A DNA stretch of 64,000 bases from Spirochaetia bacterium. Its GTDB lineage: Bacteria > Spirochaetota > Spirochaetia > SZUA-6 > Bin103. The position numbers were made by a program, and so were the translations under genes. The notes beneath the pieces are model-generated. The model was given only the letters and a program-made list of their open reading frames with translations, searched no databases and was not told where the DNA came from. Below, one piece after another: positions 3,650 through 21,718 of this stretch (the stretch's first letter is position 1; the number at the start of each line of letters is the position of its first letter). The stretch spans positions 3,408,019 through 3,472,018 of the forward strand of contig OZ241863.1 in NCBI GenBank assembly GCA_965203055.1, read 5' to 3'.

Positions 3650-3666
3650 GAAGGTACGCGGCGGTA

Positions 3667-5088: not shown

Positions 5089-5223
5089 GGCGCGCTCCGA
5101 TCATTTCGTCAAGTCACGATTGAACAAGCCTCGACTAGACAAACCCGTGCCTGGCGGCGGTGGCGCTTGCCAAGTCCATGACTGATCATGTACGCACTGC
5201 TTCAGTGAAGAAGTGGTGCTGCC

Positions 5224-7723: not shown

Positions 7724-8334
7724 GTGTAACGGTATGTGTCGAAGGCGGCGGCGACTCGAGTACTCTGAAAAGGATGTGTCGAAAAGGCTTCAGTGAATTC
7801 TTTCGTAAGGCAGGGTTGGCCGGCCGCATGCCGAAGATCATCGCGGGCGGCGCACGGGACAACACCTACAAGGATTTTTGCGTCTTGGTCGGTGCCACGA
7901 ACCGCGATTTCGTCATCCTGCTGGTCGATAGCGAAGCGCCGGTGTCCGGGAGTTCTGGCGTATGGGAACACTTGAAACGCCGTGACAAATGGACTCTGCC
8001 GGCCGGGGCCGCGGACGAGAACGCTCATCTCATGGTGCAGTGCATGGAGGCTTGGTTCCTTGCGGACAAGGCCACGTTGGCCGTGTTTTTCGGCAACGGC
8101 TTCAACGAGAACGCACTTCCCCGACGGGTAGAAGTCGAGAACATTCCGAAGAAGCAGCTTCTTGACAGTATCGAGAATGCGACACGTTCGTGCAGGCCGA
8201 AAGGCAAGTATAGCAAGGGCCAGCACTCGTTCCATCTTCTTGGTCAAGTTGAACCGGAGAGGGTCACCGCGGTATCGCCATATGCACGGCGTCTCATCGA
8301 CACCCTGAAGAACAAGGCATCGGGTCGTGAATAA
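7720..8334 (+). CDS. DUF4276 family (TOPRIM-like) partner of the AAA_21 ATPase
   Basis: GTG at 7720 overlaps the ATPase stop (GTGA). Protein MSVTVCVEGGGD...ILLVDSE...HLMVQCMEAWFLAD...YSKGQHS. The real start lies inside the 7105-8334 ORF. Confidence 0.8.
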   Translation: MSVTVCVEGGGDSSTLKRMCRKGFSEFFRKAGLAGRMPKIIAGGARDNTYKDFCVLVGATNRDFVILLVDSEAPVSGSSGVWEHLKRRDKWTLPAGAADENAHLMVQCMEAWFLADKATLAVFFGNGFNENALPRRVEVENIPKKQLLDSIENATRSCRPKGKYSKGQHSFHLLGQVEPERVTAVSPYARRLIDTLKNKASGRE

Positions 8335-9029
8335 ACCTGTGGAGATCGAGTACCCCAGTTCGGACGGTGAGCCGGTGGCGGAAAGCAGCTTTCAACTCAT
8401 CCCTCTGTTCTACGCCTTCGACGCGCTGCGGCGCCGCTATGCCGCTCGTGATGACGTGTTCGTAGCGGCCGTCCTGCTGTTGTACTACCAGGAGGGCAAC
8501 CCGGCGGCGCGGGTGGCGCCGGACGTATTCGTGGTGCTCGGCGCGGAGAATCGCCCGCGCCACACGTACCAGTTGTGGAAGGAACCGAAGGGGCCGGACT
8601 TCGTGCTGGAGATCACCTCGGCAAGCACCAGGGACCGGGATCAGGGACCGAAGCGAGAGACGTACCGACAGTTGGGAGTGCGGGAGTACTTCCAGCACGA
8701 CCCGACGTGGGACTATTTGGACCCGCCGTTGCAGGGGCTGGAACTGATCGGGGGAAGGTACGAGCTGCGGCCCGCCGGAGGAGCTGGCGGACGGAACTCT
8801 GCGGCTGGAGAGCAAGGTGCTGGGGCTGGAATTGCGGCAGGAGGCGGAGAGGCTGCGGTTCTACGATCCGGCGACGCAGGGCTATCTGCTGTCGTCGAAA
8901 GAACTAGAGCAGCAGCGGAAGTTGGAAGACGCCCTCTGGCAGGCGGAAGCCACCCGGAGACAGGCGGAAGCGCGCATCGCCGAACTTGAGGCGATACTCC
9001 GCGAGCGGGCTGAGAAGGGGCTAAAGTAG
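8327..9029 (+). pseudogene. Uma2 family (PD-(D/E)XK) endonuclease with a +1 frameshift near 8770
   Basis: IEYPSSDGEPVAES, APDVFVV, PDFVLEITSASTRDRDQGPK, GVREYF. The family C-terminus (EELADGTLRLESKVLGLELRQEAERLRFYDPAT...AEARIAELE) continues in another frame from about 8772 to the stop at 9029. Confidence 0.8.
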
Positions 9030-9176: not shown

Positions 9177-12100
9177 ATGACGACCCTGTCAGCGGACCTG
9201 CGCCGGCAACTGGAGCGCACCGTCATGCAAGCGCGCCACGTCGCCGAGACCGGCGCCCGGGCGGCGCTGGAAGCGCTCGCCGTTGCCGAACCCCAGCCCT
9301 ACGTTCACATGGACGGCGCGCAGCGCGACCTGCGCCTGCGGTTGCGCGCCCACGCCCGGCAGCTCGGCGACCGGCTCGGCGCCGCCGCGGGAGCACGGTC
9401 AATCGATCACGTGGTCTACGAGTGCGCCTTTGAGCACTGGCACGGCATGCTGTTCGCCCGCTTCCTGGCCGAGAACCACCTGCTGATCGAGCCGGAACTG
9501 GGCATCGAGGTCACCCTGGCCGAATGCGCGGAACTGGCGCAGGAGGAACAGGACGCCGACCAGTGGACGCTGGCCGCGCGCTTCGCCCAACGCATGCTGC
9601 CGCAAGTGTTCCGGCCCGACCACCCGGCTTTCGCGGTCCGCCTCGCCCGCGAACACCGGCTGGCGTTGGAGCGGCTGGTCGAGAGCCTGCCGGCGGAGGT
9701 GTTCGCGGCAGCCGACTCGCTCGGCTGGGTCTACCAGTTCTGGCAGTCCGGCCGTAAGGCCGAGGTGAACCGCTCCGAGGTCAAGATCGGTGCGGAAGAG
9801 ATGCCCGCAGTGACGCAACTGTTCACCGAGCCCTACATGGTGAGCTTCCTGCTGGACAACTCCCTGGGGGCGTGGTGGGCGGCGCGCCGCCTGACCGACC
9901 TGAACGAGGCCGCGCTAACCGACGCCGGCACGGAATCGGAACTGCGCCGAGCGGTGGCGCTGCCCGGCGTGCCGCTCGACTATCTGCGCTTCGTGCGCCA
10001 CGACGAAGGAGAAGGAACAGGGCCTGCGCGGTGGCGCCCGGCAGCCGGCGCGTTCGACCGCTGGCCCGAGCAGCTCGGCGACCTCAAGGTTCTGGACCCC
10101 TGCTGCGGTTCGGGTCACTTCCTGGTCGCCGCCTTGGGCATGCTGGTGCCGATGCGCATGGCAAGCGAGGGGCTGACCGCGCGCGCAGCCGTGGATGCGG
10201 TGCTGCGCGACAACCTGCACGGCCTGGAACTGGACCGACGCTGCGTGGAGCTGGCCGCGTTCGCCCTGGCGCTGGCCGCCTGGCGCTGGCCCGGCGCCGG
10301 CGGCTATCGGCCGCTGCCGTCGCTGAACGTGGCCTGCTCCGGGCTCGCGCCCAACGCGGCCAAGGAGGAGTGGATCACGTTGGCGGAGCAGGCCGCCGCC
10401 GGCGATACCGCGCTTTCGGCTCAGCTTCGCGGCAGCCTGGACGCGCTGCACGATCTGTTTCGGCAGGCGCCGCTGCTGGGCTCGCTGATCGACCCGCGGA
10501 CGCTGAAGCGGGAGTTGTTTCAGGGTGACTACGAGTCGGTGCAGGCGCTGTTCGCCGCCGCGGCCGCATCGGAGCGCGCCACCTTCGAGCAGACCGAGCG
10601 GGCGGTAGCGGCGCAGGGAATCGCGCGCGCCGCCGAGTTGCTGGCCGGCCGCTACCACCTCGTGATCACCAACGTTCCCTACCTCACGCGCCGCAAGCAG
10701 AACAAAGATCTGCGCGCCTTCTGCGAAGCCCGCTACCCGGCCGCCAAGAACGATCTGGCCACCGTATACCTGGAACGTGCCTTGAGTCTGTGCGTAGAAG
10801 GAGGAACCGCCAGCTTGGTGCTGCCGCAGAACTGGCTGTTTCTCACGAGCTACCGACTGCTCCGCGAGAAGCTGCTCAAGCGCGAGGCGTGGCATCTGCT
10901 CGCCCGGCTGGGGGAAGGAGGATTCGAGTCATCCGCAGCCGCCGGCGCGTTTGCTGTGTTGCTTACGTTGAGCCGCGGCAGTCCGGCCGATCAACCACTC
11001 CGATTGTCCCGCAACCAGACAGCGGACCGCGGAGTATACGGTCTGGACGTTGCTGTAGCTCCAACCGCGAACCAGAAGGCCAAGCAGCTATTGACTGCGG
11101 AGATGACAGGATATCAGCAGCAGGAATACCTGCGAAATCCGAAGGCAGTCATTACGTCTGGCCGTCCTCCTGCAAGCGGAATGCAGTTGGCAGAAGGCGC
11201 TGACTACGGCAAGGGCAGTACTACCGGTGACGCCCCGAGATTCCTGTCCTGCTTCTGGGAGTTTCCCGAAATCGCGTCCTATCATGTCTTGTGGCTCAAC
11301 TCGCCAAGTGAGCATGCATGGTCCGGAAGGACGCAGATTTGCACGGTGCCATTGAACCACGAGGACCTGAGCGTCCAGAGAGGATGTCGGATACACGGCC
11401 AGCGTGTCTTTGGTCGTCCCGGAGTCGCAGTCAACAAGATGCGGCGGTTGGAACCGTTTCTCTACGCCGGGGAAGTGTTCGACGACAACGTATGCCCGAT
11501 CGCACCGAAAGATGCTGGCCTGATCCCGGCCGTATGGTCATACGTCCAGTCGACTCACTATCACGACGATGTACGGTCCATTGACCAAAAGCTGAACGTT
11601 ACGGCCGGGACGCTGACGTCCGTTCCCTTCGACCTGGACCGCTGGACCGAAGTCGCCGCCGAACAATATCCCAACGGCCTTCCGCTTCCCTACACCGACG
11701 ATCCCACGCAGTGGATATTCCACGGCCATCCGTGCGGGTCGGTCATCTGGGACGAAACGACCAAACGCACCACCAACGGACCGTTCCGGCAGGATGCCGG
11801 CGTGCTGCAGGTCGCCGTCGCCCGCCTGCTCGGCTACCGCTGGCCGGCGGAACGGGACGATGCCATGGAACTGGCCCCGGAACAGCGCGCCTGGGTCCGC
11901 CGCTGCGCCACGCTGCACCACTTCGCCGACCAGGACGGCATCGTCTGCCTGCCGGCGGTGCGCGGCGAACTGCCCGCTGCCGACCGCCTGCTGCGCCTGC
12001 TGGCCGCCGCCTTCGGCGAAGCATGGAGCGACGCCACCCTCCCGCGCCTGCTCGCCGCTGCCGGCAGCGCCAGCCTCGACGACTGGTTGCGCAACCGCTT

Positions 12101-12797
12101 CTTCGAGCAGCACTGCAAGCGATTCCATCACCGCCCGTTCGTCTGGCACGTCTGGGACGGCCGCCGCGACGGCTTTCACGCCCTGGTCAACTACCACAAG
12201 CTGGCAGCCGAGGGCCGTAAAGGCCGGCAGCTCCTTGAATCCCTCACCTACAGCTACCTGGGCGACTGGATCACGCGCCAGAAAGACGGCGTGGAACGCG
12301 GCGCCGCGGGCGCCGAGGATCGGCTTGCCGTCGCCTTTGCACTGCAACGGCGCCTCGCTGCCATCCTCGACGGCGAACCGCCGTTCGACCTGTTCATCCG
12401 CTGGAAGCCGCTCGCCCAACAACCGACCGGCTGGCACCCGGACGTCAACGACGGCGTACGGCTCAACATCCGTCCATTCATGGCCGCCGACCTCGACGGC
12501 GGCAAGAAGGGCGCCGGCATCTTGCGCGCCAAGCCGAACGTCCACTGGCGCAAGGACCGCGGCAAGGAACCCCGCACGCTGGCTGACGGCGGCAAGCCCT
12601 CGCCCTGGGCGCAAGACGACCGCGACCTGGACGACGACCGCGACCTGCGCCCCAAGGAAGACTACCCGTGGTTCTGGCACGGCGACCAGTTCACCGGCGA
12701 CCGGGTAAACGACATCCATCTCACGAACGCCGAGAGATCAGCGCCCCGGGCTCATCCTATCTCGTACTACTTCTCACGGACGGCCCGTTCGATATAG
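9177..12797 (+). CDS. pglX: BREX adenine methyltransferase PglX (BrxX)
   Basis: 1206 aa. LGWVYQFW; TQLFTEPYMV; SAM-binding motif I VLDPCCGSGHFL; catalytic motif IV ITNVPY; C-terminal PDVNDGVRLNIRPF. BREX context. Confidence 0.92.
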   Translation: MTTLSADLRRQLERTVMQARHVAETGARAALEALAVAEPQPYVHMDGAQRDLRLRLRAHARQLGDRLGAAAGARSIDHVVYECAFEHWHGMLFARFLAENHLLIEPELGIEVTLAECAELAQEEQDADQWTLAARFAQRMLPQVFRPDHPAFAVRLAREHRLALERLVESLPAEVFAAADSLGWVYQFWQSGRKAEVNRSEVKIGAEEMPAVTQLFTEPYMVSFLLDNSLGAWWAARRLTDLNEAALTDAGTESELRRAVALPGVPLDYLRFVRHDEGEGTGPARWRPAAGAFDRWPEQLGDLKVLDPCCGSGHFLVAALGMLVPMRMASEGLTARAAVDAVLRDNLHGLELDRRCVELAAFALALAAWRWPGAGGYRPLPSLNVACSGLAPNAAKEEWITLAEQAAAGDTALSAQLRGSLDALHDLFRQAPLLGSLIDPRTLKRELFQGDYESVQALFAAAAASERATFEQTERAVAAQGIARAAELLAGRYHLVITNVPYLTRRKQNKDLRAFCEARYPAAKNDLATVYLERALSLCVEGGTASLVLPQNWLFLTSYRLLREKLLKREAWHLLARLGEGGFESSAAAGAFAVLLTLSRGSPADQPLRLSRNQTADRGVYGLDVAVAPTANQKAKQLLTAEMTGYQQQEYLRNPKAVITSGRPPASGMQLAEGADYGKGSTTGDAPRFLSCFWEFPEIASYHVLWLNSPSEHAWSGRTQICTVPLNHEDLSVQRGCRIHGQRVFGRPGVAVNKMRRLEPFLYAGEVFDDNVCPIAPKDAGLIPAVWSYVQSTHYHDDVRSIDQKLNVTAGTLTSVPFDLDRWTEVAAEQYPNGLPLPYTDDPTQWIFHGHPCGSVIWDETTKRTTNGPFRQDAGVLQVAVARLLGYRWPAERDDAMELAPEQRAWVRRCATLHHFADQDGIVCLPAVRGELPAADRLLRLLAAAFGEAWSDATLPRLLAAAGSASLDDWLRNRFFEQHCKRFHHRPFVWHVWDGRRDGFHALVNYHKLAAEGRKGRQLLESLTYSYLGDWITRQKDGVERGAAGAEDRLAVAFALQRRLAAILDGEPPFDLFIRWKPLAQQPTGWHPDVNDGVRLNIRPFMAADLDGGKKGAGILRAKPNVHWRKDRGKEPRTLADGGKPSPWAQDDRDLDDDRDLRPKEDYPWFWHGDQFTGDRVNDIHLTNAERSAPRAHPISYYFSRTARSI

Positions 12798-12806
12798 GAT
12801 CAACCA

Positions 12807-14042
12807 ATGCAACCATCTCCCGCAATACATAATCCCGACCGCTACATGACGGCCTTTCGTCAAATCCTTTCCCAGGGCCGCAAGCGTATCGGGATCCTGA
12901 TTGGTGCGGGAGCGCCAACGTCGATTCGCGACGACAGAGACAGTCCACTTATTCCGAATGTTGAAGGTCTCACAAATGCCGTAATAGACACAATGAACAG
13001 TGATGATCGTAAAGTAGTTGAATCTCTCAAGAAACAAATTAAGCAAACAGGAAAGACCATTAACATCGAAACAATACTTACGCAAGTTCGTTTACTCTCT
13101 CAGGCCCTTGGAAATTCGGAAGTTTATGGTCTGAATGGCGACGAATACGGCGAATTGGCACGCCGAATATGTAGTAAGATAGGTGAGATAGTAGGTGCTC
13201 GATTGCCTGTCTCACCTAATCCATATACAGAATTGGTGTCCTGGATATCGGGCACGCAAAGAGAACACTCGGTCGAAATTTTTACACCCAACTACGACTT
13301 GTTGATCGAGGAAGCCTTCGAGCGTTCCAGAGTTCCTTATTTCGATGGATTCAGCGGGTCCTATAGACCGTTTTTTGATGCGGCTAGCGTCTCTTCCGAC
13401 GTACTACCGGCACGTTGGGCGCGTCTGTGGAAGCTCCACGGTTCATTGGGATGGAAGATATCAGATAATGCGGTAGTCAGAACCGGTCGACGAAATGCAA
13501 CCGAACTGATATATCCCGACCACCTTAAGTACGATCAAGTTAGGAGACTTCCGTATTCGGCATTATTCGAGCGACTTCGTACGTTTCTTTTGATTTCGGA
13601 TACACTTCTCATCTGTACCGGATTTTCGTTTCTTGATTCGCACATCTGTGCGGTATTGGACGAAGCATTGGCAGAAAACGCTCATACCGCGATATATGCT
13701 TTTCAGTACGGTGAACTCAGCAGAGAGTCGGCGGCTGCTCAGATTGCGCGGTCTCGACCCAATATCAGCATCTACGCTCCAGACGGCGCGATCGTCAACG
13801 GCGTTAAGGGACTGTGGCGGTTAGGTCATCCTCCTAGCGCAGACTGGGAGGACATCCGTCAGACGTTCTGGAATACGACACCGAGTGATGGCCAGTATCC
13901 GTTTTTGCTAGGCGACTTCGCGATGCTAGCGAGATTCTTGGCATTGATCCAGGCTCCGCAGATAGCATCGTCGGCATCTGACCAGAGATCGGACGACTCG
14001 GATCAGCTATCTATTCGGGAGCACCATGATGCTCAGTCGTGA
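12807..14042 (+). CDS. SIR2-family (SIR2_2) NADase-like protein of a Sir2-HerA defence cassette
   Basis: LIGAGAPTS; IFTPNYDLLIE; YFDGFSG; LWKLHGSL; IYPDHLKY; TGFSFLDSHI. Overlaps the downstream HerA gene. Low GC. Confidence 0.9.
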   Translation: MQPSPAIHNPDRYMTAFRQILSQGRKRIGILIGAGAPTSIRDDRDSPLIPNVEGLTNAVIDTMNSDDRKVVESLKKQIKQTGKTINIETILTQVRLLSQALGNSEVYGLNGDEYGELARRICSKIGEIVGARLPVSPNPYTELVSWISGTQREHSVEIFTPNYDLLIEEAFERSRVPYFDGFSGSYRPFFDAASVSSDVLPARWARLWKLHGSLGWKISDNAVVRTGRRNATELIYPDHLKYDQVRRLPYSALFERLRTFLLISDTLLICTGFSFLDSHICAVLDEALAENAHTAIYAFQYGELSRESAAAQIARSRPNISIYAPDGAIVNGVKGLWRLGHPPSADWEDIRQTFWNTTPSDGQYPFLLGDFAMLARFLALIQAPQIASSASDQRSDDSDQLSIREHHDAQS

Positions 14043-15861
14043 TCCCACATATCTTGGCACGATAGAAGCGGTGTCGGGCGCTGCGCTCAACGTTCATCTT
14101 GCTCCGTCCGTGGCTTCGGGACTGTCAATTATCAAGGGACAGACCTATAGGGTTGGCCAAGTGGGCAGCTTCGTCAGAGTTCCGCAGGGTTATCAAGACT
14201 TGTTCGGGGTCATTTCAGAAGTTGGAGCTAGCGCCGTGCCTGATCAGTTTGATCCCGGCACTGACACTGGACGCTGGATGAAGATTGAGCTAGTTGGTGA
14301 GACTGTCGGCCAGACGTTCGAGCGGGGAGTGAGTCAGTATCCCAACATAGGGGATGCCGTTCACTTGGCAATCGAGGAGCATCTACGAAGTATCTATGAC
14401 GTACGAGGCCATGGCTATGTTGTGATAGGGGCACTTTCCAGTGCGGAGAGCATTTCGGCAAAGGTAGCGCTTAACGAGCTGGTGACAAGACACTCGGCAG
14501 TCCTCGGATCCACCGGATCCGGCAAGTCTACAACGATAGCCAGTCTGCTTCGGGCGATTACCACGGTTAATGATGGGAATGATCAATACCCTAGCGCACG
14601 AGTCATGGTCCTCGACATACATGGAGAATACTCCGTGCCTCTTGCGGACGTATCGCAGGTGTTCAGCGTCGAGCCACAGTATGAAGAAGAGCGCTTGTAT
14701 ATACCCTATTGGGCGCTGGATACTGGCGACCTGCTGGATTTCTTGACTGGGGGAGTGCAGGACAACCAAGCGGCTGCCTTTACTGACAAGATTTTTAACC
14801 TGAAGGTGGCTTCGCACCAAGCACAGCGGTTTCCAGGTGTCGATCGCGCCTCGATAACCGTTGATACGCCACTTCCATACAGCCTCAAGAGGCTTTGGCA
14901 CGAACTCATCGATGTTGAGATCGCGACCTTCGAAGGAAAAGATCGTGATCAGTCTACATGCTACGATCGGGGAAACGCAGATATGCTCGATCGACCGAAG
15001 TACAGGCCGCATGCGATGGGATCCGCGGGGCCGTTCTTGAATCCACTGGCTCGCGGAATCGTGCGCCCCCTGGACTTGTTGCGTTCACGACTGCTTGATC
15101 GCCGCTACGACTTTCTTTTGTGTCCCGGCCCGTGGGAACCCGACCTTACTGGTAAGCCGCGGAAAGATCTGGATGAACTTCTCGGCGACTGGCTCGGCGG
15201 CGAAAAACCGATCACCATCCTGGATCTGTCGGGCGTTCCGAGTGGCGTCCTTGAACGCCTCGTGGGCTCGATACTCAAGATCGTCTACGAAGCGCTGTTC
15301 TGGAGCCGCGAGAAGACCGAAGGCGGGATCGAGCGTCCGCTGCTGATCGTGATGGAGGAAGCCCATCGCTACATGTCGAGCCGATCGGCAGGCACCGCCT
15401 CGGAAGTAATTCAACGAATCGCGAAGGAGGGCCGTAAGTACGGCGTGGGCGCTATGGTTGTCAGTCAGCGGCCCTCTGATGTGGACGAGACGGTGTTGTC
15501 GCAGTGCGGTACTTTTTTCGCGCTGCGGCTATCAAACCCCGAAGACCGAGCTCGTGTACGAGGTACGCTACCGGACGGTCTTGTCGGCCTTCTTGACGTT
15601 CTGCCAATTCTCCGCACAGGAGAAGCCATCGTCACCGGCGAAGCGGCAAAGCTGCCGATGCGCTGTCGCGTGACGCTTCCATCGAAGAAACACCGGCCTC
15701 GTAGCGAGGATCCGGAGATCAGCAAGAAGTGGGGACTTCAGAGGCGCGAGGAAGGCTATCAACGGGTCGTGGCTTCATGGAGATCGCAGAGCCCTATCGC
15801 GGTTACCAAGGAGTTGGATTTGCAGCGAACCCAGGTCGAGGATGACTCGGCCGTAGATTAG
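14026..15861 (+). CDS. herA: HerA/FtsK-family ATPase (DUF87), with an N-terminal HAS-barrel-like region
   Basis: GQVGSFVRVP; RHSAVLGSTGSGKS; LDIHGEY; Walker B LIVMEEAH; RIAKEGRKYG; VSQRPS; LSQC. Confidence 0.9.
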   Translation: MMLSRDPTYLGTIEAVSGAALNVHLAPSVASGLSIIKGQTYRVGQVGSFVRVPQGYQDLFGVISEVGASAVPDQFDPGTDTGRWMKIELVGETVGQTFERGVSQYPNIGDAVHLAIEEHLRSIYDVRGHGYVVIGALSSAESISAKVALNELVTRHSAVLGSTGSGKSTTIASLLRAITTVNDGNDQYPSARVMVLDIHGEYSVPLADVSQVFSVEPQYEEERLYIPYWALDTGDLLDFLTGGVQDNQAAAFTDKIFNLKVASHQAQRFPGVDRASITVDTPLPYSLKRLWHELIDVEIATFEGKDRDQSTCYDRGNADMLDRPKYRPHAMGSAGPFLNPLARGIVRPLDLLRSRLLDRRYDFLLCPGPWEPDLTGKPRKDLDELLGDWLGGEKPITILDLSGVPSGVLERLVGSILKIVYEALFWSREKTEGGIERPLLIVMEEAHRYMSSRSAGTASEVIQRIAKEGRKYGVGAMVVSQRPSDVDETVLSQCGTFFALRLSNPEDRARVRGTLPDGLVGLLDVLPILRTGEAIVTGEAAKLPMRCRVTLPSKKHRPRSEDPEISKKWGLQRREEGYQRVVASWRSQSPIAVTKELDLQRTQVEDDSAVD

Positions 15862-15871
15862 GAGGGATATC

Positions 15872-16084
15872 TTGGAGAAGCAGCGTGTCTCGTCTTCTAC
15901 GGTGATGTCGATAGGATACGACCGCCAGACTGAGACGCTCGAGATCGAGTTCGGGAGCGGCCGCGTATACCAGTACTATGGCGTTCCTGACAACCTGCAC
16001 AACGAGATAATGCAGACGCCGTCGAAGGGGCAGTTCTTCAATACTTACATCAGGGATCAATATCCGTATTCACGGGTGGGGTGA
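15872..16084 (+). CDS. KTSC domain protein (70 aa)
   Basis: VSSSTVMSIGYD..TETLEIEFGSGRVYQYYGVP...SKGQFFNTYIR is a typical KTSC pattern. The TTG start follows the SD AGGAGG, which overlaps the HerA stop. Confidence 0.9.
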   Translation: MEKQRVSSSTVMSIGYDRQTETLEIEFGSGRVYQYYGVPDNLHNEIMQTPSKGQFFNTYIRDQYPYSRVG

Positions 16085-16098
16085 CCGGCGGGTGATCG

Positions 16099-17307
16099 AT
16101 GACGATCGAATGGCCTGAGGTCGAGCGGCGCATCGCCGGCGGGGAGGACGACCGTACCGAGTTCAAGCGCGGGATCGGAGACCTGCGCGCGGTTGCCCGG
16201 ACGCTGTGCGCGTTCGCCAACGGCGCCGGCGGGCTGCTCGTGATCGGCGTCGATGACCGCGGCGCGGTTGCCGGCGTGGCCGCGGACGCCGAATCGGTGC
16301 AGGAACGGCTGACCGGCCTGCTGCACACCGCCTGCGGCAAGCCGGTCACCGCGCGCTGCGGGCGGCGCGACACCGGCGCCGGCTGGGTGCACTGGATCGC
16401 CGTGCACCGCCATCAGCGCGGCTACGAACCGTTCGCGTACGACGGCCGCTTCTGGATCCGGCGCGGCCGCGCCACCGTCGCGCCGTCGCCGTCCGAGCTG
16501 CAGGAGCTGTTCAACACCTTCGGGTTCGTGCTCACCGAGCGTCAGATCATCCCCTCGGCGACGGTCGAGGAGATCGACTTCGGCGCCGTGCGCTCCTTCA
16601 TGCGGGCGCAGGGCCTCGATACCGAGCGCGAGCCGCAGCCGGCGCGCGCGGACGACCTGCGCAACGCCAGCGTCGCCGACGAGCTGGACGGCGCGCTGCG
16701 CCCCACGCTGTATGGCGCGATGGTGTTCGGGCGCGACCCGCAGGGGTATCCCCACACCTTGAACCTGTTCGTGCAGTGCGTCCGCTACGGCGGCCTTGAC
16801 CAGGCGGCCGCGGTGCTGAGCGCGGGCGAGGGCAAGGGCCGCCTGGAAGATCAGGTGACGCGCGCCATGGGGTGGTTTCGCAGCCTGGGCCGGCGCGAAG
16901 TCTACGAGGGGCTCTACCGCCGCGACCTGCCGCTGCTGCCGGAGGACGCGCTGCGCGAGGCGCTGGTCAACGCCGTCATCCACCGCGACTACGCCCTCAC
17001 CGGGTCGCCGGTCCTGCTGGAGGTGTTCGACGACCGCATCGCGGTGACCAGCCCCGGCGCGCTGCCCAACCACATGACGGTGCAGCAGGCGCGCCTGGGC
17101 GGCGCGCCGCGCTCCCGCAACGAGATGATGGCGAACGCCATGGTGGTGCGCCGGCTGATGGAGCGGCGCGGGCGCGGCTGGTTGATGATGCGCCACGCCA
17201 TGCGGCGCTTCAACGGGACCGAGCCGGCGCTCCACAACGACGAGCGCGACCGCTTCGTGCGGGTGACGTTCGATCTGCGGCCGGCTCCCGCGGCAGGCGG
17301 CGCGTGA
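16099..17307 (+). CDS. Schlafen/AlbA_2 domain + HATPase_c_4 ATP-binding protein
   Basis: GEDDRTEFKR..CAFANGAGGLLVIGVDDRG.V.GV (AlbA_2); ALREALVNAVIHRDY..FDDRIAVTSPG..RN..MERRGRG. Stop overlaps the pglZ start (GTGA). Confidence 0.88.
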   Translation: MTIEWPEVERRIAGGEDDRTEFKRGIGDLRAVARTLCAFANGAGGLLVIGVDDRGAVAGVAADAESVQERLTGLLHTACGKPVTARCGRRDTGAGWVHWIAVHRHQRGYEPFAYDGRFWIRRGRATVAPSPSELQELFNTFGFVLTERQIIPSATVEEIDFGAVRSFMRAQGLDTEREPQPARADDLRNASVADELDGALRPTLYGAMVFGRDPQGYPHTLNLFVQCVRYGGLDQAAAVLSAGEGKGRLEDQVTRAMGWFRSLGRREVYEGLYRRDLPLLPEDALREALVNAVIHRDYALTGSPVLLEVFDDRIAVTSPGALPNHMTVQQARLGGAPRSRNEMMANAMVVRRLMERRGRGWLMMRHAMRRFNGTEPALHNDERDRFVRVTFDLRPAPAAGGA

Positions 17308-19667
17308 CGGCCGACGTGACGCCGGGCGCTGCGGCGCCGGGCGTCGAAACGACGGTCGTCGAGGCGCTGGCCGCGGCGCTCGCCGGCGCCGCCCGCTTCG
17401 ATCCCGATGACGTGGTGCGGCCGGCCGCGGTCCTGTGGACCGATCCCGCGGCGCAGTGGCAACCGGTCGTGCCCCACCTGCGCCGGTTCGCGCCGCACCT
17501 GCTGGCGCTCGGCGAGTACGATGCCGAGCAGCGCACCGGGCCGTCGATCTGGCTGCGCTGCGTAATCGAGCGGACCCTGGACGCGCCCCGCATCCCCGAT
17601 GCGGCGACCCCGATCCTCTATCTGCCCGGCGTGAGCCGCCAGCAACTCGGCGCGGCGCAGACCTGCCCCCGGCGCCTGCAGCCGCTGGTGGAACTGCAGT
17701 ACCGCGGCGCCTGCTGGACGCAGAAGAACGGCCGAGACTGGACGGTGGAGGCATTCCTCACCTCCCGGGCCGGCGGCCTGGGGCTGGACATGGCCCGGGA
17801 TGCCGCGACGCGGCAGGCAATGCTGCGCGCCGTGGCGGAGTTGGCGCTCGCGCCGCTGCCGGCGCTGCGCGGCCGGCGGCTGGACGCGCAGGACTTCGAC
17901 GGTCTGTTGTCGGATGATCCGATCAAGGACCTGCTGTCCTGGCTCGGCGACCCGCAGGCGATCATGACCGGCTGGGAGGCGGCGCGCCGGGACGCCTTCG
18001 CCGCGCGCTGCCGCGCGGACTTCGACTTCGATCCCGCCGGCGACGGCGAACTGGTCGCCGCCGAGCGGCTCGGCCGGCGCGACGGGCCATGGCAAGCGGT
18101 CTGGAACCGGTTCGCCGAGGCGCCGGCGCGGTATCCCGGGGTGCCGGCACTGCTGCGCCGCGCGCGGCCCGACGACCTGTTCGCGGAGCGCTCGTCGTGG
18201 CCGCAGGAGAACGAAGCGGACGAAGCGGCGCTGCGGCGCCGCCTTGCGGCCTGCGCCGGCCGCTCGCCCGCCGCCGCGCGCGCCGAGCTCCGCGCGCTCG
18301 AACAGGAGCACGGCCAACGCCGCGGCTGGGTGTGGGCCGCGCTCGGGCAGGCGCCGCTGGCGTACGCGCTGGAGCACGTGGCGCTGATCGCCGCGCGCAC
18401 CGCGGAGCAGCTCGGCGGGGCGTCGGCCGCCGAGCTGGCCCGCGGCTACGCGGCCGGCGCGTGGCAGGTCGATGCCGCCGCGCTCGCCGCGATGGAGGCG
18501 GTGAAGTCCGCCGCCGACCGAAAGGCGGTGAGCGCGGCGCTGCAGGCCGTCTATCTGCCGTGGCTGGAAGCTGCGGCGCGGCGGCTGCAGGCGCTGGCCG
18601 AGCAGGAGCCGCGCGCCCTCCGCGACCCGCCGGAGCGCTACGCCGCGCGCGACCAACCCGGTACGGCGATCCTGTTCGCCGACGGCCTGCGGTTCGACGT
18701 TGCGCAGCGGCTGGCCGCGCGCCTGCGCGCCGACGGCCGCACGGTGCGGGTGGAGACCCGCTGGGCGGCGCTGCCGACCGTGACCGCCACCGCCAAGCCG
18801 GCGGTCGCTCCGGTTGCCGAACAGATCGCCGGCGCCTCCCCGGGCGAGGAGTTCCGGCCGGCAGGCGCGGACGACGGCCGCCCGTTGACCGCCGCCCGGT
18901 TCCGCAAGCTCCTGACCGCCGCCGGCTACCGGTACCTCGCCGCGGACGAGACCGGCGACCCGGCGGGCCGCGCCTGGACCGAGCACGGCCAGCTCGACCG
19001 GCTGGGCCACTCGCTGCAGGCCGGGCTCGCCGCCGGCCTCGACGACCAGCTCGGCCTGCTGCGCGAACGCGCCGGAGCGCTGCTCGACGCCGGCTGGCGG
19101 GAAGTGCGGGTGGTGACCGATCACGGCTGGCTGTGGCTGCCCGGCGGCCTGCCCAAGGTCGAGCTGCCCCGCTACCTCACCGCCACCCGCTGGGCGCGAT
19201 GCGCGGCCATCGCCGGCGATTCGGCGGTCGAGACGCCGGTCGTGGCGTGGCATTGGAACGCCGGTGAACGGATCGCGGTGCCTCCCGGCGTCGCCTGCTT
19301 CACCGCCGGCTGTGAGTACGCGCACGGCGGGGTGAGCCTCCAGGAAAGCCTGATTCCGGTCTTGCGGGTCGCGGCCGGCGCGGGCGCCGCCCCTGCGCCC
19401 ACCGCCATTACCGCGCTATCCTGGGTAGGGCTGCGCTGCCGGGTGCGCATCGCCGCGCCGCCGCCGGGCGCGGCCGTCGACCTGCGCACGCGGGTGGCCG
19501 ACGCCGCGGCGAGCATCGACCGGGCGCGGCCGGTCGACGCGCAGGGAGCGGCGAGCCTGCTGGTGGCGGACGACGAGCTGGAAGGCGCCTCGGCCGTGGT
19601 GGTGGTGCTGGACGCCGGCGGCCGGGTCGTGGCGCGGCAATCGACCATTGTCGGGGGCGGAGATTGA
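17304..19667 (+). CDS. pglZ: BREX phosphatase/nuclease PglZ (type B-like)
   Basis: Likely GTG start at 17304, inside the 16872 ORF. PglZ alkaline-phosphatase-like motifs LFADGLRFD, LPTVTATAK, VVTDHGW and YAHGGVSLQE. Confidence 0.92.
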   Translation: MTADVTPGAAAPGVETTVVEALAAALAGAARFDPDDVVRPAAVLWTDPAAQWQPVVPHLRRFAPHLLALGEYDAEQRTGPSIWLRCVIERTLDAPRIPDAATPILYLPGVSRQQLGAAQTCPRRLQPLVELQYRGACWTQKNGRDWTVEAFLTSRAGGLGLDMARDAATRQAMLRAVAELALAPLPALRGRRLDAQDFDGLLSDDPIKDLLSWLGDPQAIMTGWEAARRDAFAARCRADFDFDPAGDGELVAAERLGRRDGPWQAVWNRFAEAPARYPGVPALLRRARPDDLFAERSSWPQENEADEAALRRRLAACAGRSPAAARAELRALEQEHGQRRGWVWAALGQAPLAYALEHVALIAARTAEQLGGASAAELARGYAAGAWQVDAAALAAMEAVKSAADRKAVSAALQAVYLPWLEAAARRLQALAEQEPRALRDPPERYAARDQPGTAILFADGLRFDVAQRLAARLRADGRTVRVETRWAALPTVTATAKPAVAPVAEQIAGASPGEEFRPAGADDGRPLTAARFRKLLTAAGYRYLAADETGDPAGRAWTEHGQLDRLGHSLQAGLAAGLDDQLGLLRERAGALLDAGWREVRVVTDHGWLWLPGGLPKVELPRYLTATRWARCAAIAGDSAVETPVVAWHWNAGERIAVPPGVACFTAGCEYAHGGVSLQESLIPVLRVAAGAGAAPAPTAITALSWVGLRCRVRIAAPPPGAAVDLRTRVADAAASIDRARPVDAQGAASLLVADDELEGASAVVVVLDAGGRVVARQSTIVGGGD

Positions 19668-21718
19668 GACTCACACTCGATGACCTGGACCGGCGCGCGG
19701 CGCAGGTGTTCGACGGGTATCTGGTACGCAAGGACCTGGTTCGCAAGTACAGCCGCCAGTATCCGGTGCCCACCTACGTCGTCGAGTTTCTGCTCGGCCG
19801 CTACTGCGCCACGACCGACGAGCGGGAGATCGAGGAGGGGCTGGAGATCGTCGAACGGCAGCTTGCCGACCGCACGGTGCGCACCGGCGAGGAGGAGCTG
19901 GTCAAGGCGCGGGCGCGCGACCGCGGCTCCATCAAGCTGATCGACCTGGTCAAGGCGCGCCTGGACGCGCGCACCGACTCGCTGCTGGCCGAGCTTCCCG
20001 CGCTGGCGATCCGGGACGCCCGCATCGACGACGATCTGGTGCGGCGGCACGAGCGCATGCTCACCGACGGCTTCTACGCCGAGGTCACCCTGAGCTACGA
20101 CGCGGCCATCGCGCAGGAGAAGAACGGACGCCCGTTCGCGATCGATGCCGTGCGCGCCATTCAGCTTTCGCACGCCGACGTCCTGGAGACCCTGCAGCGC
20201 GCCCGCCGCGAGCTCGACAGCGGCCAATGGCGGCGCCTGCTGTTGCGCAGCGTCGGTCTGGAGCCGGCCGCGCTCAGCGCGCGGGCGCAGTTGGTCGCGC
20301 TGGTGCGCATGGCGCCGTTCGTGGAGCGCAACTACAACCTGGTGGAGCTGGGGCCGCGCGGCACCGGCAAGAGCCACCTGTTCCAGCAGATCTCCCCCTA
20401 CGCCCATCTGATATCCGGGGGCAAGGCGACGGTGGCGAAGATGTTCGTCAACAACGCCACCGGCCAGCGGGGGCTGGTCTGCCAGTACGACGTGGTCTGC
20501 TTCGACGAGATTTCCGGCGTCTCCTTCGATCAGAAGGACGGCGTGAACATCCTCAAGGGGTACATGGAATCGGGCGAGTTTTCGCGCGGCAAGGAGAGCA
20601 TCCGCGCGGACGGCGGCGTGGTGATGGTCGGCAACCTCGATGCCGACGCCGCGCAGCAGCAACGCGCCGGCCACCTGTTCAGCCCGCTGTCCGCGGACCT
20701 GCGCGACGACACCGCGTTCATGGACCGCATTCACGCCTACGTGCCGGGCTGGGACTTCCCCAAGCTCGATCCGCGCGCGCACTTCACCGATCACTTCGGA
20801 CTGGTCAGCGACTTCCTGGCGGAGTGCTGGAGCCGGCTGCGCGCCGGCAGCCGCGTCCCGGCGCTGCAGGGCCGGGTGCACTTCGGCGGCGCGCTCAGCG
20901 GGCGCGACCTCACTGCGGTCAACAAGACGGTGAGCGGTCTGCTCAAGCTGCTCTACCCGGACCCGGCGATGCCGGTGCCGGACGACGAGCTGGAGGAGCT
21001 GGTGCGCATCGCCCTGGAAGTGCGCCGCCGCGTCAAGGAGCAGCAGAAGCGGGTGTTCAAGAGCGAGTTCCGCAACACCCACTTCAGTTACGCCCTGGGC
21101 GAGGCCGGGATCGAACGGTTCGTGTCCACGCCGGAGCTGGGCAGCGACGATGCCATCGACCCGGATCCGCTGCCGCCGGGTCAGGTGTGGGGCATCGGCC
21201 CCGGCGGGCCGGAGACCGGCCCGGCGCTCTACCGCATCGAGGTGACGGTCGGCCCGGGCAGCGGCGTCCGCATCCTCAACGCCCCGGTACCGCCGGCGTT
21301 CCGCGAGAGTACCCGCTACGCCGAGCAGAACCTGTACGCCCGCGCGCGCGAGCTGGTCGGCGACCGCGACCCGCGCGCCCACGAGTTTTCGGTGCAGCTC
21401 CGCGCCATGGACCACGACCGCTCCGGCGCGGCGCTCGGGCTGCCGGCGCTGCTGGCGCTGTGCGGCGCGCTGCTGGAGCAGAGCCTCAAGGGCGGCCTGA
21501 TCGTGGTCGGCGGGCTCAACCTGGGCGGATCGGTGGAACCGCTCGCCAATGCGGTCGGCGTCGTCGAAGCGGCGGTCGAGAAGGGCGCCGGCACGGTGCT
21601 GCTCCCCGTTTCGGCGCGCCGGCGCCTGTTCGACCTCTCCGACGACATGGCCACGCGCGTCAATCTGCAGTTCTACGGCGACGCGCCCGACGCCCTGTTC
21701 AAGGCCCTCCTGAAATAG
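19664..21718 (+). CDS. brxL: BREX Lon-like AAA+ protein BrxL
   Basis: VPTYVVEFLLGRYC; ERNYNLVELGPRGTGKSH; VVCFDE; KGYMESGEFSRG; DTAFMDRIH..PGW; C-terminal Lon-like domain. Overlaps the pglZ stop. Confidence 0.93.
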   Translation: MRLTLDDLDRRAAQVFDGYLVRKDLVRKYSRQYPVPTYVVEFLLGRYCATTDEREIEEGLEIVERQLADRTVRTGEEELVKARARDRGSIKLIDLVKARLDARTDSLLAELPALAIRDARIDDDLVRRHERMLTDGFYAEVTLSYDAAIAQEKNGRPFAIDAVRAIQLSHADVLETLQRARRELDSGQWRRLLLRSVGLEPAALSARAQLVALVRMAPFVERNYNLVELGPRGTGKSHLFQQISPYAHLISGGKATVAKMFVNNATGQRGLVCQYDVVCFDEISGVSFDQKDGVNILKGYMESGEFSRGKESIRADGGVVMVGNLDADAAQQQRAGHLFSPLSADLRDDTAFMDRIHAYVPGWDFPKLDPRAHFTDHFGLVSDFLAECWSRLRAGSRVPALQGRVHFGGALSGRDLTAVNKTVSGLLKLLYPDPAMPVPDDELEELVRIALEVRRRVKEQQKRVFKSEFRNTHFSYALGEAGIERFVSTPELGSDDAIDPDPLPPGQVWGIGPGGPETGPALYRIEVTVGPGSGVRILNAPVPPAFRESTRYAEQNLYARARELVGDRDPRAHEFSVQLRAMDHDRSGAALGLPALLALCGALLEQSLKGGLIVVGGLNLGGSVEPLANAVGVVEAAVEKGAGTVLLPVSARRRLFDLSDDMATRVNLQFYGDAPDALFKALLK

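What the first reader, a model, noticed from the sequence alone, without database searches (positions are those of the whole stretch)
12807..16084. Sir2-HerA-KTSC three-gene cassette: a candidate new variant of the Sir2-HerA anti-phage system, nested in BREX
Seen: sir2 overlaps herA by 17 nt, and the herA TAG stop doubles as the SD (TAGGAGGG) of a 70-aa KTSC gene 10 nt downstream. All three genes share a low-GC block with sharp edges near 12735 and 16085 (13021-13080 is 18/60 GC versus 40/60 at 12361-12420), so they probably arrived as one unit. Established: two-gene Sir2-HerA systems are NAD+-depleting anti-phage complexes, and KTSC is a small nucleic-acid-binding domain. Inference: KTSC is a dedicated third component (ssDNA/RNA sensor, activator or inhibitor of the NADase) that, to my knowledge, is not part of the described Sir2-HerA architecture.
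Basis: partly seen in the sequence, partly recalled or inferred. Interest (0 to 1): 0.85.

Follow-up and report, generated by a model that had tools for sequence, protein, structure and literature searches.

The report
Split three-gene SIR2-HerA-KTSC defence operon
This is an intact copy of a known NAD-depleting anti-phage system (SIR2-HerA) in which the small KTSC gene is a piece of HerA that the lab-studied version carries fused to its tail, so it is a true third part but not a new kind of part.

Summary

KTSC is not an incidental neighbour. Among loci whose HerA is close to this one (at least 412 bits), all 86 non-redundant loci that could be judged carry KTSC: 66 as a separate gene and 20 fused in frame to the HerA C-terminus. 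None of 48 loci with distant HerA has it.

It is not a new component either. The solved prototype, Paenibacillus sp. 453MF SIR2-HerA (PDB 8wiv, 8wld; PMC11472057), has this domain as HerA residues 628-696. There it is resolved and described as part of a "C-terminal arm domain", never as KTSC. The window therefore holds the split form, which is the commoner and basal form, of a known system.

One point is open. Three close relatives keep KTSC at the same BREX slot, under purifying selection, after sir2-herA was replaced by other cassettes.

This scan reached the same reading on at least eight other genomes.

Interest is modest.

The parts
12735..12806 (+). Left junction of the low-GC block. It comprises the last codons of pglX (stop at 12797) and a 9-nt spacer before sir2.
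   Evidence: GC falls here. blastn homology to relative G411, which lacks sir2-herA, ends at window 12749. The PglX C-terminal tails differ between the window and G411.
12807..14042 (+). sir2: a 411-aa SIR2-like NADase effector with catalytic N162, D164 and H211.
   Evidence: Pfam SIR2_2 2e-18. PADLOC SIR2 PDLC04094 6.5e-158. PsSIR2 8w9l E 7.4e-76, with N162/D164/H211 aligned to the N163/D165/H212 that the paper names as catalytic.
14026..15861 (+). herA: a 611-aa HerA/FtsK-type ATPase with Walker A GSTGSGKST and Walker B LLIVMEEAH. It ends in a flexible tail where relatives continue into KTSC.
   Evidence: Pfam DUF87 4.3e-29 and HerA_C. PADLOC HerA PDLC04105 1.1e-158. PsHerA 8wiv_A E 1.3e-169 over residues 6-589. 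Motifs were read and are invariant in 62 sequences. The AF2 model has pLDDT 82.6, with low-confidence stretches at 560-570 and 597-611.
15859..15871 (+). herA stop TAG (15859-15861), overlapping the Shine-Dalgarno AGGAGGG, plus the spacer before the KTSC start.
   Evidence: Read directly. Fused relatives read through the equivalent stretch as a linker (P0073).
15872..16084 (+). KTSC gene: a 70-aa protein equivalent to the C-terminal domain of fused HerA proteins.
   Evidence: Pfam KTSC 82.6 bits. AF2 model pLDDT 94.4. Foldseek TM 0.97 to 7x8c, 0.96 to 4rgi, and 0.74-0.90 to HerA chains of 8wiv/8wj3/8wld/8wof. Conserved directly after herA or fused to it in all 86 loci that could be judged.
9177..12797 (+). 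pglX, the BREX methyltransferase and upstream flank.
   Evidence: PADLOC PglX PDLC02528 E 0.
16099..17307 (+). Downstream flank: a Schlafen AlbA_2 + HATPase_c_4 gene of native GC (0.73), overlapping the pglZ start.
   Evidence: Pfam. GC. It is conserved next to KTSC in relatives G411, G415, G410 and G412 (in G412 only in fragments). It occurs in only 3 of 100 close-clade loci overall.
17304..21718 (+). pglZ and brxL, the remainder of the BREX operon.
   Evidence: PADLOC PglZ 9.6e-296 and BrxL 5.8e-282.

Best explanation
The window holds a complete SIR2-HerA anti-phage system of the clade that contains the Paenibacillus sp. 453MF prototype, in its split form. Sir2 is the NAD+-destroying effector and HerA is the hexameric ATPase that binds and activates it. 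The 70-aa KTSC protein is the module that forms the end of HerA's C-terminal 'arm' in the prototype. Here it is translated separately from its own Shine-Dalgarno site. By inference it docks non-covalently on the side of the HerA ring, one copy per subunit, and helps hold neighbouring subunits in the split-spiral hexamer. The cassette sits in a cargo slot of a type 1 BREX operon, between pglX and pglZ. No separate promoter or terminator was found, so it is probably co-transcribed with BREX. Shown here: gene content, intact catalytic motifs, strict HerA-to-KTSC linkage, repeated fusion, and identity of the domain with a resolved part of the solved complex. Inferred: that free KTSC binds HerA, that it acts as an inter-subunit clamp, and that the system defends by NAD+ depletion as the prototype does.
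For: (1) Linkage. 153 loci were collected; 152 have a HerA hit, and these split into two groups by HerA score against the window: at least 412 bits, or at most 229 bits. In the close group of 100 loci (the window's own included), 72 have KTSC as the next gene, 24 have it fused in frame, 4 end within 56 nt of herA, and 0 lack it. Made non-redundant: 66, 20, 4 and 0 of 90. In the distant group of 52 loci, 49 lack KTSC and 3 could not be judged.
(2) Whole-genome Pfam KTSC search. In 5 of 5 genomes with a close HerA there is exactly one hit above the cut-off, and it is the gene next to herA. In 0 of 10 genomes with a distant SIR2-HerA is KTSC next to herA.
(3) Tree. The KTSC-bearing HerA clade is one branch (support 99). 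Its basal lineages are split, and the fused state needs at least 2-3 changes.
(4) Collinear junction. Fused P0073 reads ...SWRAQSPIAVT...(linker)...KQTVSSS, where the window has a stop, 10 nt and a start.
(5) Solved prototype. HerA E 1.3e-169, Sir2 7.4e-76, KTSC profile 3.5e-27 to residues 628-696 of 8wiv_A. The domain is resolved in the cryo-EM chains. The paper says the arm wraps the neighbour's RecA-like domain in trans and that the C-terminal extension stabilises the split spiral.
(6) Catalytic N162/D164/H211 and Walker A/B are intact.
(7) RefSeq plasmids of Rhizobium, E. coli and Sulfitobacter show the same three genes in the same order.
(8) The order of identity to L001 > L002 > L003 > L004 is the same for HerA (83, 79, 76, 73%) and KTSC (81, 80, 64, 57%).
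Against: KTSC is not confined to HerA.
- In the phylum sample, 24 of 30 KTSC loci examined have no HerA within 1.5 kb.
- In viral contigs, 70 of 76 KTSC loci have none directly upstream.
- Three close relatives (G411, G410, G412) keep an intact KTSC at this very slot with no sir2-herA. dN/dS is 0.11-0.30 in all ten pairs of the five KTSC genes, including the pairs in which both genomes lack herA. KTSC may therefore work without HerA.
- KTSC GC3 (0.73) lies between herA (0.61) and the native flank (0.94). It may have been at the slot longer than the present sir2-herA.
- No experiment on the KTSC part is reported in the text I read of PMC11472057 (abstract, sections 21, 22, 26, and passages).
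- The sample of close loci is biased. Searches used patterns taken from the clade, and one search kept the best 80 of 542.
- That the paper's helices 'alpha19-20' are the two KTSC helices is my inference from a helix count and could be off by one.
Confidence: 0.82

Rival explanations
1. KTSC is a portable small subunit, such as a sensor, adaptor or clamp, that serves many unrelated defence modules. HerA is only one client. In this spirochaete family the BREX slot keeps KTSC constant while the effector genes upstream are exchanged.
For: At the same slot, ahead of an orthologous KTSC, five genomes carry different upstream genes. G000 and G415 have Sir2-HerA. G411 has a 69-aa ORF whose stop overlaps the KTSC start (ATGA). 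G410 has ThsB-like TIR + 8xMP. G412 has a UvrD-like gene (cut by an IS), DarT, and an ADP-ribosylglycohydrolase that ends 2 nt before KTSC. dN/dS of KTSC is 0.11-0.30. Elsewhere, a Halorubrum plasmid has E2/UBC - ThiF - KTSC with a 4-nt overlap, and L168 has an NlpC/LRAT-like gene, KTSC and a SAVED gene. PMC9503650 mentions, as an unpublished observation, HerA variants coupled to KTSC and an endoDNase. Earlier notes of this scan list KTSC beside OLD nucleases, a NYN nuclease and PDC-S46. These notes are leads only and were not tested here.
Against: The relatives' KTSC may be a remnant of an ancestral Sir2-HerA-KTSC cassette, kept because recombination breakpoints fall at its 5' edge. Part of the measured purifying selection may date from before herA was lost. 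Adjacency in a defence hotspot is weak evidence of partnership. Most phage KTSC genes sit among small ORFs with no obvious partner. No binding or functional data exist.
Confidence: 0.3
2. In this genome KTSC belongs functionally to the downstream AlbA_2/HATPase_c_4 gene and BREX, not to Sir2-HerA.
For: The KTSC/AlbA_2 adjacency is conserved in G411, G415, G410 and G412 whatever lies upstream. An AlbA_2 homologue also follows the cassette in L003. The gap between KTSC and the AlbA_2 gene is only 14 nt.
Against: Only 3 of 100 close-clade loci, the window's own among them, have an AlbA_2 homologue. KTSC is fused to HerA in 24 loci and never to AlbA_2. KTSC GC (0.535) matches the foreign block, not the AlbA_2 gene (0.729). 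In L003 the AlbA_2 gene lies about 1.5 kb after KTSC.
Confidence: 0.05
3. KTSC is an incidental neighbour or a spurious short ORF.
For: It is short (70 aa) and starts with TTG.
Against: Pfam gives 82.6 bits. A strong Shine-Dalgarno site precedes it. It is present in 86 of 86 loci that could be judged. dN/dS is 0.11-0.30. The predicted fold has pLDDT 94.4 and TM 0.97 to a solved KTSC protein.
Confidence: 0.01

Closest known systems
Paenibacillus sp. 453MF SIR2-HerA (PDB 8w9l, 8wiv, 8wj3, 8wld, 8woc, 8wod, 8wof; PMC11472057)
   Same: It lies in the same HerA clade (569 bits, E 1.3e-169) and has the same Sir2 (259 bits) with aligned catalytic N/D/H. Its HerA residues 628-696 are the same KTSC module (97 bits; TM 0.74-0.90; 46-53% identity). 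PMC11514289 (passage) reports that this system protects E. coli through Sir2-mediated NAD+ depletion.
   Different: There KTSC is fused to HerA (696 aa) and the system is called two-gene. Here HerA stops at 611 aa and KTSC is a separate cistron. The paper never uses the name KTSC (0 occurrences).
E. coli SIR2-HerA (8su9/8j4u group) and S. aureus SIR2-HerA (8yho, 8yhx)
   Same: They are the same kind of system: a SIR2 NADase plus a HerA hexamer.
   Different: They are distant. HerA scores only 104 and 89 bits, and Sir2 46 and 60 bits. Neither has a KTSC match to the profile at E up to 1. They correspond to the KTSC-less outgroup in my tree.
Stand-alone KTSC proteins 7x8c (Methanolobus vulcani) and 4rgi (Yersinia pestis YPO2434)
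   Same: They share the fold (TM 0.96-0.97, 40-42% identity) and the length of about 70 aa.
   Different: Their genomic partners were not examined here. No function for them was found in the papers searched.
HerA + KTSC + endoDNase variants, noted as unpublished in Iyer et al. 2022 (PMC9503650, section 3.7.1)
   Same: A HerA-like ATPase is coupled to a KTSC gene in a conflict system.
   Different: [quoted passage not shown] Here, and in 78 of the 86 non-redundant loci that could be judged, a sirtuin is present. Seven of the other eight have too little upstream DNA to tell, and only one fused locus (L077) lacks Sir2 upstream.
Defence genes nested inside BREX and related operons
   Same: The cassette lies between pglX and pglZ. 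HEC-01 and PDC-S03 lie between brxC and pglX of the same operon.
   Different: That nesting in BREX is a published pattern comes from my recall and from earlier notes of this scan.

Membership tests
SIR2-HerA anti-phage system (PADLOC SIR2 + HerA models) | A SIR2-like protein with the catalytic Asn/Asp/His | tested here: met
   PDLC04094 E 6.5e-158. N162, D164 and H211 align to PsSIR2 N163, D165 and H212.
SIR2-HerA anti-phage system (PADLOC SIR2 + HerA models) | A HerA/DUF87 ATPase with Walker A and B, adjacent to sir2 on the same strand | tested here: met
   PDLC04105 E 1.1e-158. DUF87 4.3e-29. GSTGSGKST and MEEAH are present. The two genes overlap by 17 nt.
SIR2-HerA anti-phage system (PADLOC SIR2 + HerA models) | Phage defence by NAD+ depletion, and a Sir2-HerA supramolecular complex | not testable with these tools
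   This is inferred only from homology to the solved and assayed prototype.
KTSC-bearing (Paenibacillus 453MF-type) clade of SIR2-HerA | HerA groups with the prototype rather than with the KTSC-less HerA proteins | tested here: met
   HerA scores 569 bits to 8wiv_A, against 202 bits or less to every other solved HerA. The window's HerA lies inside the clade, which has support 99. The prototype sequence itself was not in my tree.
KTSC-bearing (Paenibacillus 453MF-type) clade of SIR2-HerA | A KTSC module at the HerA C-terminus or as the next gene | tested here: met
   KTSC starts 10 nt after herA. All 86 non-redundant clade loci that could be judged have it.
KTSC domain (Pfam PF13619) | Sequence match above the curated cut-off, and the KTSC fold | tested here: met
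   82.6 bits against a cut-off of 25, covering profile positions 1-58 of 58. The model has pLDDT 94.4. TM is 0.97 to 7x8c.
   Only statements of expectation were found. PMC7824862 calls it an RNA-binding domain and PMC9503650 calls it DNA-binding. No assay was found in the papers searched.
Type 1 BREX (host operon) | brxC, pglX, pglZ and brxL in one orientation | tested here: met
   PADLOC BrxC E 0, PglX E 0, PglZ 9.6e-296 and BrxL 5.8e-282.
Type 1 BREX (host operon) | brxA and brxB upstream of brxC | not tested
   brxC starts at window position 185, so these genes would lie outside the window.

The most novel reading that the evidence does not exclude
KTSC is a detachable, trans-acting subunit used by many unrelated anti-phage modules. 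The modules seen here are HerA, E1/E2-like enzymes, DarT + ADP-ribosylglycohydrolase, TIR + 8xMP, and an NlpC-like gene with a SAVED gene. In this spirochaete family one BREX slot keeps KTSC fixed while the effector genes in front of it are exchanged. If so, the many phage-encoded KTSC proteins could be mimics that compete with the host subunit.
Probability: 0.25. Interest if true: 0.65.

Novelty: new variant of a known kind. Interest (0 to 1): 0.33.

Why it matters
Catalogues and the structural papers treat SIR2-HerA as a two-gene system. For the clade that holds the best-studied example, the natural unit is three modules, and in most genomes three genes. Tools that model only two genes miss the third. 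Constructs cloned as two genes from split loci would lack a part that the prototype has built in. The natural split also offers a clean experiment: add or withhold KTSC in trans to learn what HerA's C-terminal arm does. The persistence of KTSC beside other cassettes in close relatives hints at a wider role, but that is not shown here.

Tried and rejected
1. Complex prediction of HerA (alignment A4) with KTSC (alignment A3) gave scores of 0.34, 0.29 and 0.30 against a mark of 0.32. The verdict was 'no answer' and the controls were not run. I draw nothing from it either way.

2. The search for related loci in genome contigs with the single HerA protein gave only 4 loci, so I switched to an alignment query and to the genome search.

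3. The first KTSC profile, built from 5 and then 9 close sequences, might have missed divergent KTSC next to distant HerA. I checked this with Pfam PF13619 over 10 whole genomes and found none adjacent.

4. I looked for a promoter or terminator that would make the cassette its own transcription unit. The scan found 2 promoter-like and 2 terminator-like sites against 2.1 and 2.6 expected by chance. No promoter-like site is on the + strand and neither terminator-like site lies at a gene boundary.

5. I tried to find in the paper which helices 'alpha19-20' are. The text gives no residue numbers. I counted helices in my own HerA model instead, which leaves an uncertainty of one helix.

6. The idea that the BREX nesting is general was rejected. 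PglX lies upstream only in L001-L003, out of the 123 loci searched.

7. I did not classify the ORFs upstream of the 70 viral-contig KTSC genes that have no HerA. The list was made and not pursued.

8. Literature searches: 'KTSC' + 'HerA' (3 papers, 1 relevant), 'KTSC domain' (7 papers) and 'KTSC' as a whole word (22 papers). None describes a SIR2-HerA-KTSC three-gene operon or names the PsHerA tail as KTSC. Papers outside this library and all supplements were not seen.
Full report
OBSERVATION

sir2 and herA overlap by 17 nt. The herA stop TAG (15859-15861) is the first triplet of TAGGAGGG, and a TTG start follows 10 nt after the stop. Relatives start at the same alignment column with ATG or GTG, which supports the TTG start.

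The GC counts are exact: 18/60 at 13021-13080 and 40/60 at 12361-12420. The block 12735-16085 is 0.537 GC, against 0.687 to its left and 0.717 to its right. Third-position GC is 0.49 (sir2), 0.61 (herA) and 0.73 (KTSC), against 0.82-0.94 in the flanking genes.

Pfam gives SIR2_2, DUF87/HerA_C and KTSC (82.6 bits, cut-off 25). PADLOC gives SIR2 PDLC04094 (6.5e-158) and HerA PDLC04105 (1.1e-158), and nothing for KTSC among its 5027 models. The flanks are BrxC, PglX, PglZ and BrxL, so the cassette is nested in a type 1 BREX operon. No + strand promoter-like site was found, and neither terminator-like site lies at a cassette boundary.

IS KTSC A REAL PARTNER?

I gathered loci in four ways:
- The HerA protein against genome contigs gave 4 loci.
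- The PADLOC HerA model over 401 genomes of the phylum gave 30 loci.
- A nine-sequence HerA alignment against metagenome contigs gave 80 loci, the best of 542.
- The same alignment against viral contigs gave 39 loci.

Scoring every stop-to-stop ORF with the window's HerA and Sir2 and with a KTSC profile divides the 152 loci that have a HerA hit into two groups, with nothing in between: HerA at 412 bits or more, and HerA at 229 bits or less.

In the close group of 100 loci (the window's own included), 72 have KTSC as the next gene, with its domain starting between -7 and +33 nt from the end of the herA frame. Another 24 have KTSC in the same reading frame as HerA, 4 run off the contig within 56 nt, and none lacks KTSC. 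After collapsing identical HerA cores the numbers are 66, 20, 4 and 0 of 90. In the distant group of 52 loci, 49 lack KTSC and 3 could not be judged.

The groups were defined by HerA alone, not by KTSC. Because my KTSC profile was narrow, I repeated the test with Pfam's model over whole genomes. Each of 5 genomes with a close HerA has exactly one KTSC above the cut-off, and it is the gene beside herA. None of 10 genomes with a distant SIR2-HerA has KTSC beside herA; one has a KTSC on another contig.

The sample of close loci is biased toward the clade, because the search patterns came from it. Several loci are the same DNA reached twice; L001 and L164 look like one locus.

A FastTree tree of 100 non-redundant HerA rows was built. 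The rows were 90 from the clade and 10 from the outgroup, the latter chosen as having Sir2, at least 150 bits and at least 400 aligned residues. The tree puts all KTSC-linked HerA proteins on one branch (support 99). The basal lineages are all split, and the fused state arises at least two to three times.

A search of the large protein collection shows that the family is big: 7853 of 8000 scored candidates reach E 1e-50. Of the best 120 (76-100% identical), 2 carry PF13619 and are 667 and 683 aa long, while 118 do not and are 600-631 aa long.

The junction is collinear. Fused P0073 continues from ...SWRAQSPIAVT through a short linker into ...KQTVSSS. The window has ...SWRSQSPIAVT..., a stop, 10 nt, and then the KTSC start.

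RefSeq plasmids of Rhizobium johnstonii, E. coli strain C5 and Sulfitobacter faviae are annotated 'SIR2 family protein / ATP-binding protein / KTSC domain-containing protein' in that order. The layout is therefore in public records, though uninterpreted.

WHAT IS ALREADY KNOWN

The window's HerA matches chain 8wiv_A, a 696-aa HerA, at E 1.3e-169 over residues 6-589. The window's Sir2 matches 8w9l at 7.4e-76. The KTSC profile matches residues 628-696 of that same HerA at 3.5e-27, and also two stand-alone KTSC crystal structures, 7x8c and 4rgi. No other solved HerA matches the KTSC profile at E up to 1.

These entries belong to the Paenibacillus sp. 453MF SIR2-HerA study (PMC11472057, found). 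I read its abstract, sections 21, 22 and 26, and passages. The paper divides HerA into a beta-barrel, a RecA-like domain, a helix bundle and a 'C-terminal arm domain (aa 576-696)'. It says the arm wraps the neighbouring subunit's catalytic domain in trans, and that a unique C-terminal extension stabilises a split-spiral hexamer. The word KTSC does not occur in it.

My AF2 model of the window's KTSC (pLDDT 94.4) superposes on 7x8c (TM 0.97), on 4rgi (0.96) and on HerA chains of 8wiv, 8wj3, 8wld and 8wof (TM 0.74-0.90, 46-53% identity). The domain is therefore an ordered, modelled part of the solved complex.

PMC11514289 (passage) states that this Paenibacillus system protects E. coli through Sir2-mediated NAD+ depletion. 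Only one paper in the library links KTSC to HerA. PMC9503650 notes, as an unpublished observation, HerA variants coupled to a KTSC gene and an endoDNase in place of the sirtuin.

HOW IT MOST LIKELY WORKS

Sir2 keeps N162, D164 and H211, aligned to the catalytic N163, D165 and H212 of the prototype. HerA keeps Walker A (GSTGSGKST) and Walker B (MEEAH), and both are invariant in 62 relatives. By homology, a HerA hexamer binds a Sir2 ring through its N-terminal barrels and unleashes the NADase on infection.

The KTSC protein is the last module of the HerA arm, made as a separate chain. I infer that it binds the side of the ring, one copy per subunit.

My HerA model has 17 helices of four or more residues. 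Numbers 7-8 fall in the bundle and numbers 12, 13 and 15 in the RecA-like domain, as in the paper's numbering. Only one helix follows number 16 in the window's HerA. The paper's 'alpha19-20 helices and their linker' are therefore probably the two KTSC helices (residues 40-48 and 52-59 of my model) and the linker that carries the nearly invariant S51 and the invariant G53. This count could be off by one helix and needs the coordinates.

The complex prediction gave no verdict, and I draw nothing from it.

WHAT DOES NOT FIT NEATLY

KTSC needs no HerA in general.
- In the phylum sample, 32 of 401 genomes have one KTSC each. Of the 30 loci I looked at, 5 have HerA upstream, 1 is at a contig end and 24 have none.
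- Of 76 viral-contig KTSC loci, 6 have HerA.

More pointedly, close relatives of this genome keep an orthologous KTSC (67-90% protein identity) next to the same AlbA_2 gene at the same BREX slot, whatever lies upstream.
- G415 has Sir2-HerA.
- G411 has only a 69-aa ORF, whose stop overlaps the KTSC start.
- G410 has a ThsB-like TIR gene and an 8xMP membrane gene.
- G412 has an IS-disrupted UvrD-like gene, DarT, and an ADP-ribosylglycohydrolase that ends 2 nt before KTSC.

Homology between the window and G411 breaks at 12749 and resumes at 15869. The exchanged unit is therefore sir2+herA, not the whole low-GC block. dN/dS of KTSC is 0.11-0.30 in all ten pairs of these five genes.

Elsewhere KTSC follows E2/UBC and ThiF genes on a Halorubrum plasmid. 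It also sits between an NlpC/LRAT-like gene and a SAVED gene in L168.

Either the relatives' KTSC is a remnant that marks a recombination edge, or KTSC serves several modules. The link to AlbA_2 is local: 3 of 100 close-clade loci have that gene, and PglX lies upstream only in L001-L003.

EARLIER NOTES OF THIS SCAN

I consulted the earlier notes only after reaching the reading above. At least eight earlier reports on other genomes came to the same conclusion: KTSC is the detached tail of HerA, and the closest known system is Paenibacillus 453MF. Others list KTSC beside OLD nucleases, a NYN nuclease and PDC-S46. I did not test those, and I use them only as leads for the wider reading.

VERDICT

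KTSC is a constant third module of this clade, but it is the same module that the solved prototype carries fused, so the window shows the split and commoner gene arrangement of a known system.

Novelty is a modest variant of a known kind, not described as such in the papers I could search. The open and more interesting question is whether KTSC is a shared subunit of many defence modules.

Noticed in passing
window 6557-8989: Other candidate defence genes are nested in the same BREX operon between brxC and pglX. They are HEC-01A (6557-7723, E 1.8e-174), HEC-01B (C-terminal part of frame 7105-8334, 1.1e-75) and a weak PDC-S03 match (8327-8989, 8.4e-9). Relative G411 keeps only the last 35 residues of HEC-01A there.
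   Followed up: partly
window 5224-6549 and 16099-17307: Two paralogous HATPase_c_4 genes lie inside the BREX operon, and the second also carries a Schlafen AlbA_2 domain (about 30% identity between the two in relatives). Their role in BREX is unclear.
   Followed up: partly
window 11000-11700: GC dips to 0.555-0.595 in the middle of pglX. PglX is only 69-87% identical among relatives whose flanking genes are 92-98% identical. This may reflect exchange of a specificity region.
   Followed up: no
L163 (G412) 758-5933: At the slot that holds sir2-herA in the window, this relative has a UvrD-like helicase gene split by a DDE transposase (DUF4372 + DDE_Tnp_1). A DarT gene and a 602-aa ADP-ribosylglycohydrolase protein follow.
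   Followed up: partly
L162 (G410) 602-1455: At the same slot this relative has a ThsB-like TIR gene overlapping an 8xMP octameric membrane protein gene, about 170 nt ahead of KTSC.
   Followed up: partly
L199 (Halorubrum plasmid NZ_CP054586.1) 1181-4213: An E2/UBC family gene, a ThiF family adenylyltransferase gene and a KTSC gene lie in a row, with a 4-nt overlap between ThiF and KTSC. Two further haloarchaeal plasmids also list ThiF under the KTSC match.
   Followed up: no
L168 (G049) 607-2104: An NlpC/LRAT-like gene, a KTSC gene and a SAVED-domain gene are tightly packed on one strand, next to a divergent HTH + Peptidase_M78 gene.
   Followed up: no
L077 255-5040: This is the only close-clade locus with enough upstream DNA and no Sir2. 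A fused HerA-KTSC gene is preceded by a 784-aa frame of another kind. The stretch holds 2 N.
   Followed up: no
G000:C1:3395480-3395866 (about 12.5 kb before the window): A second HerA-like ATPase match (E 5.7e-11) lies inside a 1671-aa frame with one in-frame TAG.
   Followed up: no
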